From: an uncultured bacterium
Lineage (GTDB): Bacteria > Zixibacteria > MSB-5A5 > UBA10806
Direction of reading: 5' to 3'
Length of the DNA: 64,000 bases
NCBI GenBank assembly: GCA_965541585.1
Contig: CBEUCH010000009.1
Span: 64,001 to 128,000 of the forward strand
The position numbers are program-made. Of the stretch, positions 30,001 through 36,000 are shown one piece after another (the stretch's first letter is position 1; every line of letters begins with the position of its first letter).

Positions 30001-33000
30001 ATATGGGCACGTCCACGCGGCAAAAAAATGCTTTCGGTAACCCAGCTTTCCGGAGGAGAGAGAGCTCTAACCGCTATATCATTGTTATTTGCAATCTATC
30101 TGGTAAAGCCCAGCCCGTTCTGCATTCTCGATGAAGTCGATGCGCCCCTCGATGATGCCAACCTGATGCGTTTTCTGAAGCTGATCAAGGAGTACGCCGA
30201 GGGCACTCAATTTATCATAATCACCCATAATAAGTTGACCATGGAGGCCTCTGATATCCTCTACGGAGTTACCATGCAATCCCCCGGAGTTTCAAAAGTA
30301 GTGGCTGTCAAATTCAGGGGCAACGGAGATGGTGACGAAGGATAAGAGGGTGCTTAAGAGATTCGCTGCCGGCCTGAAAAAAACCAGAAATGCCATCGCC
30401 AATAATTTTCCGGGTTTTGTAGGTCTGCCGGGAGAGAATGAAACTCTCGATAGAGAGACTCTGGGGGAATTAGAAGAGGCCTTGATCCTGGCCGATATCG
30501 GCGCCATAGCGGCGGCCGAGATTATTGATGACCTGGTAAAGAACTATACCGGCAAGGCGCCTCAAAATGTGCTGGCGAGAATAATCGCTGATCGGTTCAA
30601 CACAAATGCTGACGAAGAATTATCTTTGACCGCGAAGCCGCAGGTCATTCTGGTTGTCGGGGTCAACGGTTCCGGAAAGACCACCACTATTGCGAAGATT
30701 GCGGACACGGCTATAAAATCCGGCGGCAGGGTAATCATGGCGGCGGCCGATACGTTCAGAGCGGCGGCAGGTGAACAACTCGAACACTGGGCCGAAACGG
30801 TGGGCGCGGAGATTGTCCGGCAGGCCGAACGGTCAGATCCTGCCGCTGTGGCCTTCGATGCCGTCAAAGCGGGGATCGCTCGCAACTACGATCTTGTCCT
30901 GGTCGATACCGCCGGAAGACTCCAGACCAAGACCAATCTCATGGAAGAACTCAAAAAAATAAAAAGGGTGATCAATAAGGCCATGGAGGGAGCGCCGCAC
31001 CAGATCCTGATGGTTATGGATGCCACCACAGGCCAGAATGGCCTTTCGCAGATAAGCATTTTTGATGAAGCGATTGGATTGACTGGAATCGCAATTGCCA
31101 AGCTCGACGGCACGGCAAAGGGAGGAGTGCTGGTTGCCGCTGTCGAGAAATTCAAAGTACCCATAAAGTATGTCGGGGTCGGAGAGAAACCGGAGGATTT
31201 GATCGAATTCGATCCGGTGGCTTTCGCCGAGGCCCTGGTAGGTATCGATGAATAGGTTACACCACATGGATATCCGCACGGATAGACGAAATCAATTTCT
31301 CGATATAAGCGACATGGTTCGGGATCTGGTAAGTCAATCAGGCGTGGCGGAAGGCTCGGCAGTGATTTTTGTTCCTCATACGACTGCCGCCGTGACCGTA
31401 AACGAAAACGCCGATCCTGCAGTCCAATCCGATATATTGGACCACCTCGAGAAATTAATCCCCGGAAGCGAACAATTCCGCCATTCCGAGGGAAACTCCG
31501 ATTCGCATATCAAGGCCAGTCTTATTGGCTCAAGGGTGTCCATTTTCATCTCAGGGGGGAAAATTGTTCTGGGAACCTGGCAGGGGATATATTTCTGCGA
31601 ATTCGATGGCCCCCGCTCAAGAAAACTGATTGTTAAGATAATTCCCGATAAATAGAAATTAGCGGAAATGGAATGGATAACACACGATCTTTCACCCCCA
31701 TATCCAAAGGGACGATGATTTCCCTTTTTAGGATTTTCGAGAAGATTGAGATAGATATGAGGGTATGTGGACAGGTAGGTCTTTGTAGTTTAGAGATAAA
31801 GCTACCAGCGTATATAAGTCAAGTTGGTTGATTTTTTTGTTGCATTATGGACTAAACAGGGCTATGTTTTATACGATGAATTGACACAGTTTATTGTGCC
31901 ATTGTTACCGGAAAGATTATCGTTAAATGAATCAGAGAGAGTTTGAAGGCAACACCCGTTCATTCGTTCCCATATCCAACGGGACCATAATCTTCCACTA
32001 CAAGGTCATTAAGAAGATCGGCGCCGGTGGCATGGGCGAAGTGTATCTGGCCGAAGACACCAGGCTTGATCGTAAGGTCGCACTCAAATTTTTACCGCTC
32101 CATCTATGTCCGGATGAAGATTACCACATACGATTCAAAAGGGAAGCCCAAGCCGTTGCTAAATTAAATCACCCTAATATAATTACAGTCTATGAGGTTT
32201 CAGAATATCAAGGACGCCCATTCTTCGCGATGGAGTTGGTCGAGGGTCAATCATTACGAGAATTATCCTCAAGTAAAGGATTAAGCTGCGAGAGAATTAT
32301 TGAACTTGCCATTCAGATATGCGATGGTCTAAGCGCCGCTCATGAGAAAGAAATAGTTCATCGAGATATTAAACCGTCCAACATCGTTATCGACGCTTAT
32401 GGCCGTCCTAAAATTCTTGATTTTGGTTTGGCGGCAATTCGGGGCCGTGAACAAATTACCAAGACCGGATCTACTCTGGGTACAATAAGATACATGTCAC
32501 CAGAGCAGGTAGAGGGAAGAAAAGTTGACAGTAGGTCAGACCTGTTTTCACTCGGTACCGTTCTTTATGAAATGATCGCTGGCCGCACCCCATTTGAGCG
32601 CGACAATGAGGCCGCCACCCTAAAGTCCATTGGTCAAGACAATCCTGAGCCGCTGGGAAGGTACAAGTCCGATATACCTGATGAACTTCAACGCACAGTT
32701 TCCAAGTTGCTTGAAAAAGATCCGTCAATGAGATATCAGAGCGCCGCAGGTGTTATTAGTGATTTGAAACCACTTATTGCATCGACCAGGAGCTCCATGA
32801 CTTTACCCTCGACCAAACAGAAGAACAGATGGCCTCTTGCGGTCGGTGGGCTGGTAATTATCGTAGGTTTACTGGTAGCAGGTGTAAAATACTGGCCCGA
32901 CGGTGATACTGGGCATCCCGGTGCGCCAACTCAAGGGCGGATAATGTTGGCAGTACTTCCATTTGAAAACCTGGGAGCGCCGGAGGATGAATACTTCGCC

Positions 33001-36000
33001 GATGGAATCACTGATGAAATCACCTCAAGAGTCGCGGTTCTTAATGGTCTCGGCGTAATTGCGAGGACGAGTATCTTGCAATACAAGGGCACAAAAAAGC
33101 GAATTGCGGAAATTGGCTCTGAACTGAATGTTGACTACATTCTTGAGGGGACGATTCGCTGGGACAAGTCGGGCAATATCGACAGAGTCCGTATCACACC
33201 GCAATTGATCCGGGTGTCGGATGAAACGCATCTCTGGGTGGACAATATTCAAAAAGACCTCTCGCAGATTTTTGAAGTGCAAGAAGAAATTGCCACGAGT
33301 ATCGCCGGAGCGCTAAACGTAGCCTTAATAACCGGAGAGCGAGAGACGCTTGTTTATCGACCGACCGAAAACCTCGAAGCCTATGACTATTATCTTAGAG
33401 CGAGAAACTATGGCGACCATGACGATTTTCTCGCGGCGATTGAATTGCTCGATAAGGCCACCGAGCTGGACTCGACTTTTGCATTGGCCTTCGCCTTGAA
33501 ATCTCAATCACATTCAAATTATGCCTTTGGAGAGGAATTGGGCGCTTCAGAGCATTCCGGGCCGGCGCGACTCGCTTATCAAAGGGCTTTTGAAATTCAA
33601 CCTGACTTGGCTGAGGCACATCTGGCCCGCGGGACTTATTTGAATTTAATTGAAAGAGATTACTCGAGCGCTCTCGAAGAATTTGAACTTGCTCAGCAAG
33701 GACAAGTTGACGAAGCGCAGGTTCTAAATGCAATCTCAATAGTCAAGATGCGACAGGGCAAATGGCATGAGGCAATAGCTATCGCCAGGCAGGTCAACAA
33801 GCTTGACCCTCGATCATTTCGGGCTGGGTTAGTGGCGATCCAGGCAAACTTGTTCGTTCATCAGTACGACGAGGCACTGGAAGCCGTTGAGCGAGCAATC
33901 TCTTTAGCTCCTGACGAAGTTGGAATCTATTCCATAAAAGCACAGATTCAGATTAACATGGGAGCGGATGTCGAGCAGATTCAAGAGACCCTTTCCGAAT
34001 GGTCACGCCGTACCACTTTAGAGGGATGGGCATTCGAGTCAGAAGGACCGATGTTTTTCGGACTCTTTCGCTTATGGAATCAGTCGATTGACGTGGATGC
34101 AAAGATCTCTGTTATGAAGTCAAGATTACATGACTATCAGAATCCAGATCAGTATTTCTACACGGGGCTTCTGTATCAACTTAAGGGGGACGAAGTTTCT
34201 TCGTACGTCTATCTGGATTCGGCGTGTATCCTGATCAAAAATCGTGTCGCGAAGGCCCGGGGCGACACTACCGGTCGATTTGAAAATTTCGATCTGGATC
34301 ACAGCATTTATAATTTTCTTGCGCTGGCTTATTCACAGACAAATAGACATAAGCTCGCTATTGATCACGCACAGTTGGCCATGGAAACCATGACTACCGA
34401 TGACTGCCACTGGTGAGGACCTGGTTCGGTCATGGTCATGGCCTATGTTCAGTTGAATGCCGGGAATATTGATGTGGCGCTTGATTATCTGGAAGAGGTC
34501 TTGTCTATTCCGTCTTCCTATTCGACGGCCTGGGTTGAGCTGGACCCTCTATGGGCGCCGGCACGCAATCACGTTCGCTACGAAGAAATAATCTTGAAGT
34601 ACAAGGGTATTTCCTTCTGAAGAGAAAGTTGTGATGGGCCCCGCTCGAAAAAACTGATTGTTAAGATAATTACCGATAATTAGGAATTGCCCAGCCTGCT
34701 CCGGCGCTCCGGGAAATAGATCCCCTAACTTAAAGCGGACATATTCGCTATTAATAGGAACAATTCGCACTTGAGTTGCAGTTAAGTTAATCAGAATTGA
34801 CAACGGGGAGTGCAACAATGAGAAAGCAGCTTTTGATCCTAAATCTAATCGCCTTGTTTGCAAGCGGTTGTGGCGATGATTCAACCGCGCCGGGGCAGGG
34901 TGTAATTGTAGATGATGAGATTTACTCCGGCGGGGTGCCGCGCGACGGGATACCAGCCTTGAACGATCCGGTATTCATAGAGGCAAATCAGGCCATATAT
35001 TTATCCAGTGCGGATCTTGTCCTGGGCGTAGTCATCGAGGGTGAAGCCAGGGCTTACCCTATCAACATCATGAATTATCATGAGATCGTCAACGATCACT
35101 TTCAGAGTCGCCCGGTCTGTGTCACCTATTGTCCCTTGACCGGTTCAGGGGTGGTATTCGCAAGTGTCCTGGACGGGCGGGAGGTTTCTTATGGAGTCTC
35201 CGGGCTTCTATTCAGGAATAATCTGATCCCATACGACAGAACCTCGTCCAGCCTCTATTCGCAGATGTATGTCAGCGGTATCAGAGGAGACTACCGCGAT
35301 TTCGATTGGCTATTGTATCCCTCTCTGCGATGCACATGGGGATTCTGGAAGAATCATTACCCGGATACGAAGGTAATGTCTCCGAATACCGGCCATTCCC
35401 GGGACTACACCTCGAGTCCTTATGGCAATTATTCTGTGACTTACTCGACACTTTTCCCGGTCAGGTTTCCGGATAGCAGATACCATCCCAAGCATCTGAC
35501 TCTGGGAGTGCAATTCGGTGGTCAGGCCATGGCGTTCCCATCGACCGAGCTTTTCAATGAGAAAGTGGTGAATATCGAACTTGCCGGTATGCCCCTGGTG
35601 ATTGTCTATGACTCCAACGGCCGGTATATGGGCGTTTATTCACGTCTGGTGAGCGGCGACATTCTGAGTTTCTCGTTGATCAGAAACAATAGTTCTAAGA
35701 CGACAATGACCGACGATCAAACTGGCTCTACCTGGTCGGCTACGGGGCTGGCGACTGACGGCTCATTAGCGGGGGAGAAGCTGGAACAACTCCCGTTCTA
35801 TACAGCCTACTGGTTCGCCTGGCACGATTTCTACCCGGAGACCGGGGTTTACACCGCCGAAGAATGATGTGAGACACCCGGCGGCCGGTGCCGGATTTTT
35901 GCATACAGACATCCCTTGACTGGAAAAACCGAAGACGGTATAGTATATATAGAGACTTTTGTAATGGAACCAGGCGGAAAAAGAGAGGTGGGCATGTTCT

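What a model noticed while it worked through the whole genome (the two positions that open the first line are those of the whole stretch)
31927..34620. Selenocysteine-containing transmembrane Ser/Thr protein kinases (CxxU in the extracytoplasmic TPR domain)
Two paralogous membrane Ser/Thr kinases (C9:95927-98620 +, called as g01898+g01899; C25:23908-26544 -, g02840+g02839) are each split by one in-frame TGA that sits in a C-x-x-TGA motif (CHW-U-GP / CTP-U-HS) and is followed by a SECIS-like hairpin; the frame goes on for 67-70 conserved residues. I read them as selenoproteins: Hanks-type kinases whose periplasmic TPR sensor domain carries a Cys-x-x-Sec redox pair, i.e. a selenium-based redox/thiol-reactive sensor wired directly to protein phosphorylation. 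A protein-kinase selenoprotein family is not in the 2026 inventory of 119 prokaryotic selenoprotein families, so it would be a new family and the first signalling kinase using Sec.
Evidence so far: Calls 11, 17, 18: TGA=U read-through gives 897 and 878 aa proteins (kinase 25-271, TM ~300-320, TolB-N-like + TPR tail; Pfam in call 36). Call 21: hairpin GGUCAU-GGUC-AUGGCC 14-20 nt after UGA, same GGUC apical loop as the two HdrA SECIS of this genome. Call 22: search of 285 Zixibacteria genomes: 135 have homologues; the 15 best foreign matches each carry exactly one TGA inside, as do many weaker ones. Call 23: in 11 of 11 fetched foreign loci (L010-L020, 11 genomes, 30-67% id) TGA is at the same place in motif CH[WL]-U-[GS]P..VMVMA with a conserved hairpin in the codons for VMVMA. 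Call 20: Sec-less paralogues in this genome (g02901, g02841) lack both Cys and Sec there. tRNA-Sec (C11:66865) [...]
(Added by a program. Inside this text positions count along the whole contig: contig position 64,001 is position 1 of the stretch shown here. "Call 12" and the like, gene names such as g00115 and contig names such as C1 are that model's own, and its searches are not shown. The text may have been shortened before it was handed on; [...] marks where a part breaks off. The agent that wrote the report below was given it as the finding of a first reader that could run no searches.)

Follow-up and report, generated by a model that had tools for sequence, protein, structure and literature searches.

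The report
Selenocysteine in a membrane sensor kinase
A membrane signalling kinase gene that looks cut in two by a stop codon most likely encodes one protein carrying the rare amino acid selenocysteine in its outward-facing sensor domain, which would make it a selenium-containing receptor rather than the usual selenium enzyme.

Summary
Window 31927-34620 (+) is one 897-codon frame with a single in-frame TGA (34414-34416) in the motif C-H-W-TGA-G-P. A 6-bp hairpin with a GGUC loop follows 11 nt later.

The genome has tRNA-Sec, selA, selB and a Sec-type selD. Its HdrA-like and selD genes carry GGUC-apex hairpins too.

A pattern that left the codon free found 42 sites in 37 of 285 phylum genomes, and all 42 read TGA. 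The same genes end in TGA, TAG or TAA (19/11/10).

The 63-74 codons after the TGA evolve as coding sequence. They hit a curated TPR-end domain model. Hairpin changes keep the base pairs.

I read it as a real selenoprotein (about 0.85): a Hanks-type receptor kinase whose extracytoplasmic CadC-like/TPR sensor carries a Cys-x-x-Sec pair at a helix N-cap.

New here: the same Sec module sits on class III nucleotide cyclases in five genomes outside the phylum set.

No Cys-for-Sec form was found: 0 of 34 fetched homologues, and 0 of the 150 best of 33,392 library hits.

Function (redox or soft-metal sensing) is inferred. No proteomic evidence exists. The scan reached the same reading earlier on other DNA (e1-980780).

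The parts
31927..34620 (+). Whole read-through gene: 897 codons plus the terminal TGA. Annotated elsewhere as two genes (829 aa + 62 aa).
   Evidence: Seven of 7 database homologues are truncated at ...CHW.
31999..32739 (+). Cytoplasmic Hanks-type Ser/Thr kinase domain (residues 25-271) with G-loop GAGGMGEVY, VALK, HRDIKPSN, DFG and SPE
   Evidence: Pfam PF00069, 179.7 bits against a cut-off of 31.7. Motifs read; the motif names are recalled.
32830..32886 (+). Single predicted transmembrane helix (residues 302-320), preceded by K/R-rich STKQKNRW
   Evidence: Kyte-Doolittle 19-residue mean of 2.35, the only such segment
32914..34617 (+). Extracytoplasmic sensor domain (residues 330-897): a beta/alpha subdomain followed by a TPR superhelix
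   Evidence: AlphaFold model with pLDDT 89 and pTM 0.86. Foldseek matches TPR proteins and the CadC periplasmic domain 3ly8 (TM 0.67 by target).
34405..34407 (+). Cys827 codon (TGC), three codons before Sec
   Evidence: Invariant in 38 of 38 aligned Sec forms. Cys at -3 in 41 of 41 loci found by the hairpin-only pattern.
34414..34416 (+). In-frame TGA read as selenocysteine 830
   Evidence: TGA in 42 of 42 codon-free pattern hits and in 43 of 43 distinct contexts. Terminal stops of the same genes are TGA 19, TAG 11, TAA 10.
34428..34443 (+). SECIS-like hairpin GGUCAU-GGUC-AUGGCC within the codons for S-V-M-V-M-A
   Evidence: 99.2% of cells paired. Outer pair GC 38, AU 3, GU 1, UA 1. Third-codon-position entropy is 0 in the GTC codons. 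The same GGUC apex occurs in the HdrA-like and selD genes.
34456..34593 (+). TPR end-of-group capping domain (residues 844-889), encoded entirely after the TGA
   Evidence: NCBIfam NF047558, 40.6 bits against a cut-off of 32. Model helices to the C-terminus have pLDDT 92-98.
34618..34620 (+). True stop codon (TGA) with no hairpin of this kind after it

Best explanation
The gene encodes one 897-residue, single-pass membrane receptor kinase, and its UGA at codon 830 is decoded as selenocysteine.

Shown:
- The organism has tRNA-Sec, SelA, SelB and SelD.
- The UGA is followed after 11 nt by a short hairpin with a GGUC apical loop, as in the HdrA-like and selD genes of the same genome.
- The frame continues into a conserved TPR capping domain.

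Inferred mechanism:
- SelB with Sec-tRNA(Sec) binds the hairpin as the ribosome reaches the UGA and inserts Sec.
- The N-terminal Hanks kinase stays in the cytoplasm. The C-terminal CadC-like/TPR domain is outside the membrane.
- There, Cys827 (in a loop) and Sec830 (at the N-cap of helix 831-844) form a reactive Cys-x-x-Sec centre, flanked by conserved His and Trp.
- A change at this centre would alter the last TPR pair and cap, and so the kinase output. The change could be selenylsulfide formation or reduction (my split about 50%), binding of a thiophilic metal or metalloid (about 30%), or something else.

The same Sec module on class III nucleotide cyclases argues that it is an input (sensor) module, not part of kinase catalysis.
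For: Sec machinery:
- tRNA-Sec scores 75.6 bits.
- selB, selA and selD lie clustered on C11, and selD has its own in-frame TGA.

Codon identity:
- A pattern with a free codon found TGA in 42 of 42 hits, in 37 of 285 genomes and 23 of 130 genera. The reversed control gave 0.
- All 43 distinct contexts have TGA. The same genes end in TGA 19, TAG 11, TAA 10.

Tail is coding:
- 40 of 43 tails stay open for 63-74 codons.
- Codons +10 to +36 have conserved first and second positions and near-saturated third positions. Pro +2 shows 0/0/1.54 bits.
- NF047558 hits residues 844-889 above its cut-off.
- The model runs through the site at pLDDT 95-98.

RNA element:
- 99.2% of cells are paired.
- There are 4 double changes at the outer pair, and CG or UA replace UG at the third pair. 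Further G-U and U-A outer pairs occur in the cyclase forms.
- The GTC third positions are invariant.
- Loop length, stem length, loop G and the 17-nt distance meet the published bSECIS limits.
- The HdrA-like genes (DCSI-U-ILGP) and selD of this genome share the GGUC apex.

Specificity and age:
- The hairpin-only pattern hits 41 loci in 185,579 species genomes, all in this gene context.
- Sec forms are 25-75% identical to the window's protein around the site.
- The 20 non-TGA forms are separated from all Sec forms by one branch with SH-aLRT 99 in the quick tree.

Sensor role:
- The Sec module is fused to Guanylate_cyc in 3 of 4 tested proteins from genomes outside the phylum set. All 5 of those genomes have selB.
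Against: - No proteomic, 75Se or reporter evidence exists.
- No Cys-for-Sec homologue was found: 0 of 24 and 0 of 10 fetched non-TGA contexts, and 0 of the best 150 of 33,392 library hits to a profile that has Cys at that column. The nearest Sec-less orthologue of the type-2 gene deletes the loop instead. Reviews say nearly all selenoproteins have Cys homologues.
- The hairpin is weak: -5.2 to -6.6 kcal/mol alone, and -7.6 only with 37 nt from the UGA, against the published limit of -7.5. The 67-nt fold is no more stable than shuffles (z = +1.15).
- No Rfam family matches.
- UGAGGA resembles a Shine-Dalgarno site, and two in-frame AUGs follow. A restart is therefore not formally excluded.
- selB co-occurrence does not discriminate: 34 of 37 TGA-form genomes have it, against 262 of 285 overall.
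- Three copies look damaged or incomplete: L083 (frameshift), L072:2806 (TAG after 35 codons) and L072:5451 (contig edge, different hairpin register).
- Topology rests on one predicted helix plus fold similarity.
Confidence: 0.85

Rival explanations
1. Split gene. Translation stops at the UGA, giving an 829-residue kinase. A separate 62-67-residue peptide is started at one of the AUGs of V-M-V-M-A, using UGAGGA as a ribosome-binding site. The hairpin would tune the coupling.
For: ORF 34432-34620 starts with ATG. GAGGA overlaps the TGA. The type-2 gene has GAGGG 7 nt before its ATG. Public gene calls are split this way.
Against: - The stop is TGA in 43 of 43 contexts, although the terminal stops of the same genes use all three codons.
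- The Gly-Pro codons between the TGA and the ATG show a coding pattern.
- One copy has no AUG there (V-Q-V-L-A) yet keeps the TGA and a GGUC-apex hairpin. Another has AGU in place of GGA.
- A peptide made in the cytoplasm could not complete a TPR array that lies beyond the membrane helix.
- Non-TGA homologues are continuous through the site.
- Cys at -3 is invariant.
Confidence: 0.05
2. Programmed read-through or regulated termination without selenium. The hairpin promotes near-cognate decoding of UGA, or termination and read-through products coexist and only the ratio matters.
For: The hairpin is short and weak. No Cys form exists that would prove a chalcogen is needed.
Against: - A complete Sec system is present.
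- The hairpin apex equals that of the HdrA-like and selD genes.
- It meets the loop, stem and spacing limits of the bSECIS model.
- Cys at -3 gives the CxxU motif listed for many known families in Table 1 of PMC13188914.
Confidence: 0.05
3. Pseudogene, sequencing error or a different genetic code.
For: A few copies are damaged (L083, L072:2806).
Against: - The TGA sits at the same codon in 37 genomes of 23 genera, plus 5 genomes outside the phylum set.
- The tail is under purifying selection.
- TGA closes 561 of 1582 long frames in this genome, and closes this gene itself.
- Of the 43 tRNAs ARAGORN found, the only one with a UCA anticodon is tRNA-Sec.
Confidence: 0.01

Closest known systems
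Bacterial CxxU selenoproteins with an in-frame SECIS (e.g. HdrA, NF040770, as listed in Table 1 of PMC13188914)
   Same: UGA followed by a coding-region hairpin with G in the first loop positions. Cys three residues before Sec. The same GGUC apex occurs in this genome's own HdrA-like genes.
   Different: The host protein is a signalling receptor with a TPR fold, not an oxidoreductase fold. No Cys-form homologues were found. No kinase or TPR family was found by term search of the texts searched.
Bacterial Hanks-type receptor Ser/Thr kinases (PknB/Stk1, PknD types)
   Same: N-terminal Pkinase domain, one transmembrane helix and an extracytoplasmic sensor domain. Best NCBIfam similarity is PknB_PASTA_kin at 317.9 bits over the kinase domain only.
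   Different: The score is below that model's cut-off of 450. The sensor is a CadC-like/TPR domain, not PASTA or a beta-propeller. It contains Sec.
Periplasmic sensor domain of E. coli CadC (PDB 3ly8)
   Same: A two-part fold: a mixed beta/alpha subdomain followed by a helical/TPR-like subdomain, behind one membrane helix. TM 0.67 by target, rmsd 4.6 over 303 columns. From memory, CadC signalling depends on a periplasmic disulfide; this is a lead, not a test.
   Different: Sequence identity is 13%. CadC has a DNA-binding output. The TPR array here is much longer, and the reactive pair sits elsewhere.
Selenoprotein O (SelO), a eukaryotic selenoprotein with a kinase-like fold
   Same: A selenoprotein in the kinase-like clan. 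Redox regulation through Sec has been proposed for it (abstract of PMC3281104).
   Different: SelO is atypical, lacking the classic HRD Asp (abstract). Per that abstract, the Sec residue occurs only in a few eukaryotic members. Here the kinase is a canonical Hanks domain and Sec lies in a separate sensor domain.
Earlier finding of this scan, e1-980780 (another genome)
   Same: An in-frame TGA in the C-terminal TPR region of a Ser/Thr kinase next to a (GGTCAT)2 repeat, read as Sec plus SECIS.
   Different: That is an AI note on other DNA. It is not independent evidence. The cyclase fusions and the wide Cys-form search are added here.

Membership tests
Bacterial selenoprotein gene (Sec-UGA plus bSECIS) | Genome encodes tRNA-Sec, SelA, SelB and SelD | tested here: met
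   All four lie on contig C11, above the curated cut-offs.
Bacterial selenoprotein gene (Sec-UGA plus bSECIS) | In-frame UGA conserved across homologues, with the conserved frame continuing after it | tested here: met
   TGA in 42 of 42 and 43 of 43. 40 of 43 tails are open for 63-74 codons. Coding signature.
Bacterial selenoprotein gene (Sec-UGA plus bSECIS) | bSECIS model: apical loop of 3-9 nt, upper stem of 4-16 bp, G in the first two loop positions, 16-37 nt from the UGA to the loop (PMC13188914, Fig. 2 legend) | tested here: met
   Loop GGUC (4 nt), stem of 6 bp, 17 nt to the loop (23 nt in the paralogue)
Bacterial selenoprotein gene (Sec-UGA plus bSECIS) | bSECIS model: minimum free energy <= -7.5 kcal/mol | tested here: inconclusive
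   -5.2 to -6.6 for the hairpin alone. -7.6 for the UGA plus 37 nt. z = +1.15 against shuffles.
Bacterial selenoprotein gene (Sec-UGA plus bSECIS) | Cys-containing homologues with Cys aligned to Sec (true of nearly all families) | tested here: not met
   0 of 24 and 0 of 10 fetched non-TGA contexts. 0 of the 150 best library representatives. 7 of 7 close database proteins stop at CHW.
Bacterial selenoprotein gene (Sec-UGA plus bSECIS) | Selenium shown in the protein (75Se or mass spectrometry) | not testable with these tools
Hanks-type (eukaryote-like) Ser/Thr protein kinase | Pkinase domain above the Pfam cut-off, with G-loop, catalytic Lys, HRD, DFG and APE-like motifs | tested here: met
   PF00069, 179.7 bits. 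GAGGMGEVY, VALK, HRDIKPSN, DFG and SPE read.
Thioredoxin-fold thiol-disulfide oxidoreductase (usual home of CxxC/CxxU) | Thioredoxin fold around the CxxU | tested here: not met
   The site lies in a loop between two TPR helices. No Trx-like Pfam or NCBIfam hit. Only the helix-N-cap position of the second residue resembles it.
CadC-type periplasmic sensor domain | Fold similarity to the solved CadC periplasmic domain | tested here: inconclusive
   3ly8 has TM 0.67 by target but only 0.40 by query, E 1e-5, rank 39. No sequence-family test was done.

The most novel reading that the evidence does not exclude
This is an obligate-selenium receptor module. An extracytoplasmic TPR sensor would use its Cys-x-x-Sec centre (with conserved His and Trp) as the atom-level detector of an oxidant or a thiophilic metal or metalloid. 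It is plugged into at least two kinds of transmembrane signalling enzymes, Hanks kinases and class III nucleotide cyclases. Selenium would then serve signal perception rather than catalysis. Because no sulfur version exists, UGA decoding would also tie production of the full-length receptor to selenium supply.
Probability: 0.45. Interest if true: 0.85.

Novelty: new variant of a known kind. Interest (0 to 1): 0.72.

Why it matters
Known prokaryotic selenoproteins are overwhelmingly redox enzymes or small redox and metal-handling proteins. Their discovery pipelines lean on Cys/Sec pairs.

Here Sec sits in the input domain of membrane signalling proteins, and no Cys counterpart was found. Cys-pair-based searches would therefore miss it, and gene callers split it: 7 of 7 close database entries end at CHW.

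If confirmed, it would:
- add a signalling class to the selenoproteome;
- correct the annotation of dozens of genes in at least two lineages;
- give a tractable system (a 16-nt hairpin and a soluble ectodomain) for asking what a selenol can sense that a thiol cannot.

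Tried and rejected
- my first genome pattern was one N short and found nothing, not even the window. It was corrected.
- selB co-occurrence as a test is uninformative, because the trait is nearly universal in the phylum (262 of 285).
- The Rfam scan of 34300-34620 at E<=10 gave only a chance mir-132 match.
- Overall fold stability of the 67 nt after the UGA is not better than shuffles. Stability alone is no argument.
- An alternative genetic code and the pseudogene reading were rejected.
- Searches for a Cys form gave none: close relatives, fetched paralogues and a profile over 1.84 billion representatives.
- Gene neighbours (FtsY, UPF0047, DUF3179) give no functional lead.
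- The search of earlier findings by place returned nothing.
- The BSepDB supplement is held only in a cut copy. 'Kinase' was absent from the part held, and its family table may lie in the missing part.
- The careful tree search did not finish in time, so the quick tree is reported.
- A thought that H-W...M-x-M might mimic a periplasmic Cu(I) site is recalled chemistry only. The two Met codons are also fixed by the hairpin, and in the model they lie in a helix two residues apart. I do not rely on it.

Full report
**What is there.** Window 31927-34620 (+) is a single frame of 897 sense codons if the one internal TGA (34414-34416, codon 830) is read through. Gene-calling rules give instead an 829-aa ORF and a 62-aa ORF starting at 34432.
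- Residues 25-271 are a Pkinase domain (179.7 bits). The glycine loop, VALK, HRDIKPSN, DFG and SPE motifs are all visible in the translation.
- Residues 302-320 are the only strongly hydrophobic stretch. They are preceded by a K/R-rich segment.
- Residues 330-897 fold, in an AlphaFold model built from a 53-sequence alignment (pLDDT 89, pTM 0.86), into a beta/alpha subdomain followed by a long TPR superhelix.
- Foldseek matches TPR proteins at E of about 1e-8. It also matches the periplasmic sensor domain of CadC (3ly8: TM 0.67 by target, rmsd 4.6, 303 columns).
- The TGA lies in ...D-D-C-H-W-TGA-G-P-G-S-V-M-V-M-A.
- Eleven nucleotides after the TGA comes the hairpin GGUCAU-GGUC-AUGGCC (34428-34443).
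- In the model (Cys standing in for Sec), Cys827 lies in the loop 822-830. Residue 830 is the last loop residue before helix 831-844. The pLDDT there is 95-96.
- Besides Cys827 and Sec830, the ectodomain has one further Cys (767), which is not conserved.

**Can the organism make selenoproteins?** Yes.
- ARAGORN and Rfam find one tRNA-Sec (C11:66866-66957, 75.6 bits against a cut-off of 47).
- selD, selA and selB lie together at C11:72.8-77 kb, all above curated cut-offs. selD has its own in-frame TGA in ...FAACAG-U-ASK.
- The tRNA-Sec was the only one of the 43 tRNAs found with a UCA anticodon.
- TGA closes 561 of 1582 long frames in the genome. It also closes this gene. Wholesale reassignment of TGA is therefore excluded.

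**Is the TGA conserved, and as TGA?**
- A whole-protein search of the 285 genomes of the phylum finds many full-length homologues, some with one TGA and many with none.
- Of the 15 best foreign matches, 6 carry a TGA.
- I then searched the same 285 genomes with a pattern that fixes C-H-W, G-P and V-M-V-M-A but leaves the codon in question free, allowing up to 2 mismatches. It gave 42 hits in 37 genomes (23 of 130 genera). There were none for the reversed pattern. The free codon is TGA in all 42. A first attempt was mistyped.
- By tblastn on the 97 fetched loci L014-L110 I collected 43 distinct nucleotide contexts, all with TGA.
- The true terminal stops of these same genes are TGA 19, TAG 11 and TAA 10, counted over the 40 tails of 63-74 codons. 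A codon used only to terminate should drift in the same way.
- The seven close database homologues (64-100% identical over residues 760-829) all end at ...CHW. The split is therefore systematic in public gene calls.

**Is the tail translated in frame?**
- Forty of 43 tails remain open for 63-74 codons. The exceptions are one frameshifted copy (L083), one with a TAG after 35 codons (L072:2806) and one at a contig edge.
- Column entropies over 40 sequences show the coding signature after the TGA. Examples are codon +19 (0.17/0.17/1.78 bits), +21 (0.29/0/1.89) and +23 (0/0.17/1.54).
- The same holds already for Pro +2 (0/0/1.54), which lies between the TGA and the first AUG.
- NCBIfam's 'TPR end-of-group' model NF047558 hits residues 844-889 at 40.6 bits against a cut-off of 32, entirely after the TGA.
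- Non-TGA homologues are continuous through the site.

**Is the hairpin an RNA element?**
- The third positions of the two GTC codons inside it have zero entropy, against 1.5-1.9 bits at other four-fold sites.
- On the 43-row alignment, 99.2% of cells pair. The outer pair is GC 38, AU 3, GU 1, UA 1. The third pair is UG 39, CG 2, UA 2. None of 500 shuffles reaches the observed covariation score. The sequences are related, so this overstates the case.
- The only unpaired cells belong to one copy (V-Q-V-L-A). It folds in another register, again with GGUC at the start of its loop.
- The published consensus bSECIS limits are a loop of 3-9 nt, a stem of 4-16 bp, G in the first two loop positions, 16-37 nt from the UGA to the loop, and MFE <= -7.5 (PMC13188914, Fig. 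2 legend, passages read). The first four are met.
- The energy limit is borderline: -5.2 to -6.6 for the hairpin alone, and -7.6 for the UGA plus 37 nt. The 67-nt fold is not more stable than shuffles. No Rfam family matches.
- In this genome, a scan for TGA followed by a hairpin of at least 6 bp with a GGUC loop gave 21 sites. Seven lie in open frames. Two of those are the kinases and two are HdrA-like genes with the known-type site DCSI-U-ILGP.
- HdrA is listed as a CxxU selenoprotein in Table 1 of PMC13188914.
- selD has CCAGGUCCUGG after its Sec codon.
- That E. coli fdhF also has a GGUC loop 11 nt-spaced from its UGA is my recollection, not a call.

**Paralogue and wider family.**
- The second gene, G000:C25:23908-26544 (-), reads 878 aa with ...E-C-T-P-U-H-S-V-E-G-T-A-M-V-M-A. 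Its hairpin GGCCAU-GGUC-AUGGCC lies 17 nt after the UGA.
- A C-terminal search of the phylum finds one orthologue with the same site and hairpin (G106, 62-63% identical). It also finds one orthologue without a TGA (G257, 55-60% identical), in which the 14 residues around the site are deleted rather than changed to Cys.
- I built a quick maximum-likelihood tree of 53 ectodomains. These were 32 type-1 Sec forms of the 43 contexts, the type-2 form, and 20 non-TGA forms. Near-duplicates, partial and damaged copies were left out. The careful search did not finish.
- In that tree the 20 non-TGA forms lie on one side of a branch with SH-aLRT 99. Type 2 is nested among type 1. One gain or one loss of the Sec loop is enough to explain this. 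The direction needs a root.

**Beyond kinases.**
- A hairpin-only pattern (TGA, GGN, CC, seven free bases, then the hairpin) over one genome for each of 185,579 species gave 41 loci.
- All 41 have Cys at -3 and the TPR-end tail, although nothing upstream of the TGA was specified.
- Most record titles read Candidatus Zixiibacteriota. Five read Candidatus Neomarinimicrobiota.
- Five genomes reached through these loci received new handles (G285-G289), so they are outside the 285. All have selB.
- There the Sec-bearing homologues match only residues ~270-890 of the query. Three of four that I translated start with a class III Guanylate_cyc domain (54-59 bits against a cut-off of 21.9) in place of the kinase. 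The fourth has no recognised output domain.
- Their hairpins add a G-U and a U-A outer pair.
- The Sec module is therefore an input domain shared by two kinds of signalling enzyme.

**The missing Cys form.**
- At the Sec column, the non-TGA contexts carry D, L, S, I, V, Q, M, Y or G (24 contexts, one of them the frameshifted L083 copy). In the cyclase lineage they carry mostly R (10 contexts). At the Cys(-3) column they carry D, E or N. None carries Cys.
- A profile of 38 Sec forms, with Cys written for Sec, was run against 1.84 billion cluster representatives. It gave 33,392 hits at E<=0.001. The best 150 all span the site. Of these, 0 have Cys at the Sec column and 1 has Cys at the -3 column.
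- This is unusual. The reviews say nearly all selenoproteins have Cys homologues. It is the main oddity of the family.
- It counts somewhat against an ordinary Sec reading. If Sec is real, it counts in favour of a role that sulfur cannot fill.

**Rivals.**
- Stop-and-restart is suggested by UGAGGA and the AUGs. It fails to explain the exclusive use of TGA, the coding pattern of Gly-Pro, the copy without an AUG, the invariant Cys, and how a cytoplasmic peptide would complete a domain on the far side of the membrane.
- Selenium-independent read-through cannot be excluded by sequence. It ignores the match to the genome's own SECIS apex and the complete Sec system.
- Pseudogene, sequencing error and alternative code are excluded by conservation and selection.
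- selB co-occurrence could not be used as a test: 34 of 37 against 262 of 285.

**Literature.**
- 'Kinase' occurs only as PSTK in the main text of five sources. These are the 2026 review that counts 119 families or subfamilies (PMC13188914; passages), BSepDB (PMC13326102; passages and a cut supplement), deep-Sep (PMC12013277; passages), the 2022 review (PMC9312934), and, with no occurrence at all, the 2022 preprint on eight families. 'TPR' and 'tetratricopeptide' occur in none of them.
- Full-text searches for selenoprotein terms with 'threonine kinase', 'tetratricopeptide' or 'Zixibacteria' listed nothing on such a protein (search listings only).
- SelO is a selenoprotein with a kinase-like fold (abstract). 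'First kinase' should therefore read 'first canonical Hanks-type kinase'.
It is not independent evidence.

**Verdict.**
- The best reading (about 0.85) is a genuine, uncatalogued selenoprotein family.
- It is an extracytoplasmic CadC-like/TPR sensor module with a Cys-x-x-Sec centre at a helix N-cap.
- It is attached to Hanks kinases in this phylum and to nucleotide cyclases elsewhere.
- What it senses is not shown.

Noticed in passing
L185, L186, L188 (genomes G288, G286, G287); also L184, L187: The same Cys-x-x-Sec TPR sensor module, with the same hairpin, is fused to an N-terminal class III adenylate/guanylate cyclase domain instead of a kinase. This occurs in genomes outside the window's phylum set. 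L187 has no recognised output domain.
   Followed up: yes
L115 (G257:C123:9505-10020): The Sec-less orthologue of the type-2 paralogue (55-60% identical) lacks the 14 residues around the CxxU site altogether, rather than carrying Cys.
   Followed up: partly
G000:C2:165085 (+), G000:C4:180391 (-), G000:C16:10928 (-): Three further in-frame TGAs in open frames (47-76 codons before, 41-46 after) are followed by a hairpin of at least 6 bp with a GGUC loop. They are either chance or further small selenoprotein candidates.
   Followed up: no
G000:C4:96079 and G000:C4:101236 (L111, L112): Two HdrA-like genes carry DCSI-U-ILGP and 7-bp GGUC-loop hairpins 20 nt after the UGA. One (1026 aa) has two FAD/NAD-binding oxidoreductase regions. 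The other is fused to an MvhD/FlpD domain.
   Followed up: partly
L083 (G008:C4, around 214908) and L072:2806-2853 (G204:C41): Two Sec-type copies look degenerate. One has a 1-nt deletion just after the hairpin and only 52 open codons upstream. The other has a TAG 35 codons after the TGA.
   Followed up: no
L027 (G192:C271): The closest relative of the window's gene by identity (71%; G106's is 67%) shows a second TGA about 563 codons upstream of the Sec codon. Only residues 265-897 match in frame. This may be a frameshift, an assembly fault or another recoding site.
   Followed up: no
G000:C28:16.8-23.7 kb and G000:C25:23.9-29.1 kb; G106:C27; G151:C33: These receptor kinases sit in tandem arrays that mix Sec and non-Sec paralogues, head to tail. 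G106 alone has four type-1 copies and one type-2 copy.
   Followed up: no
window 31248-31655 and 34797-35867: The flanking genes are a UPF0047 (YjbQ-like) protein and a DUF3179 protein. ftsY lies at 30329-31255. There is no evident link to the kinase.
   Followed up: partly
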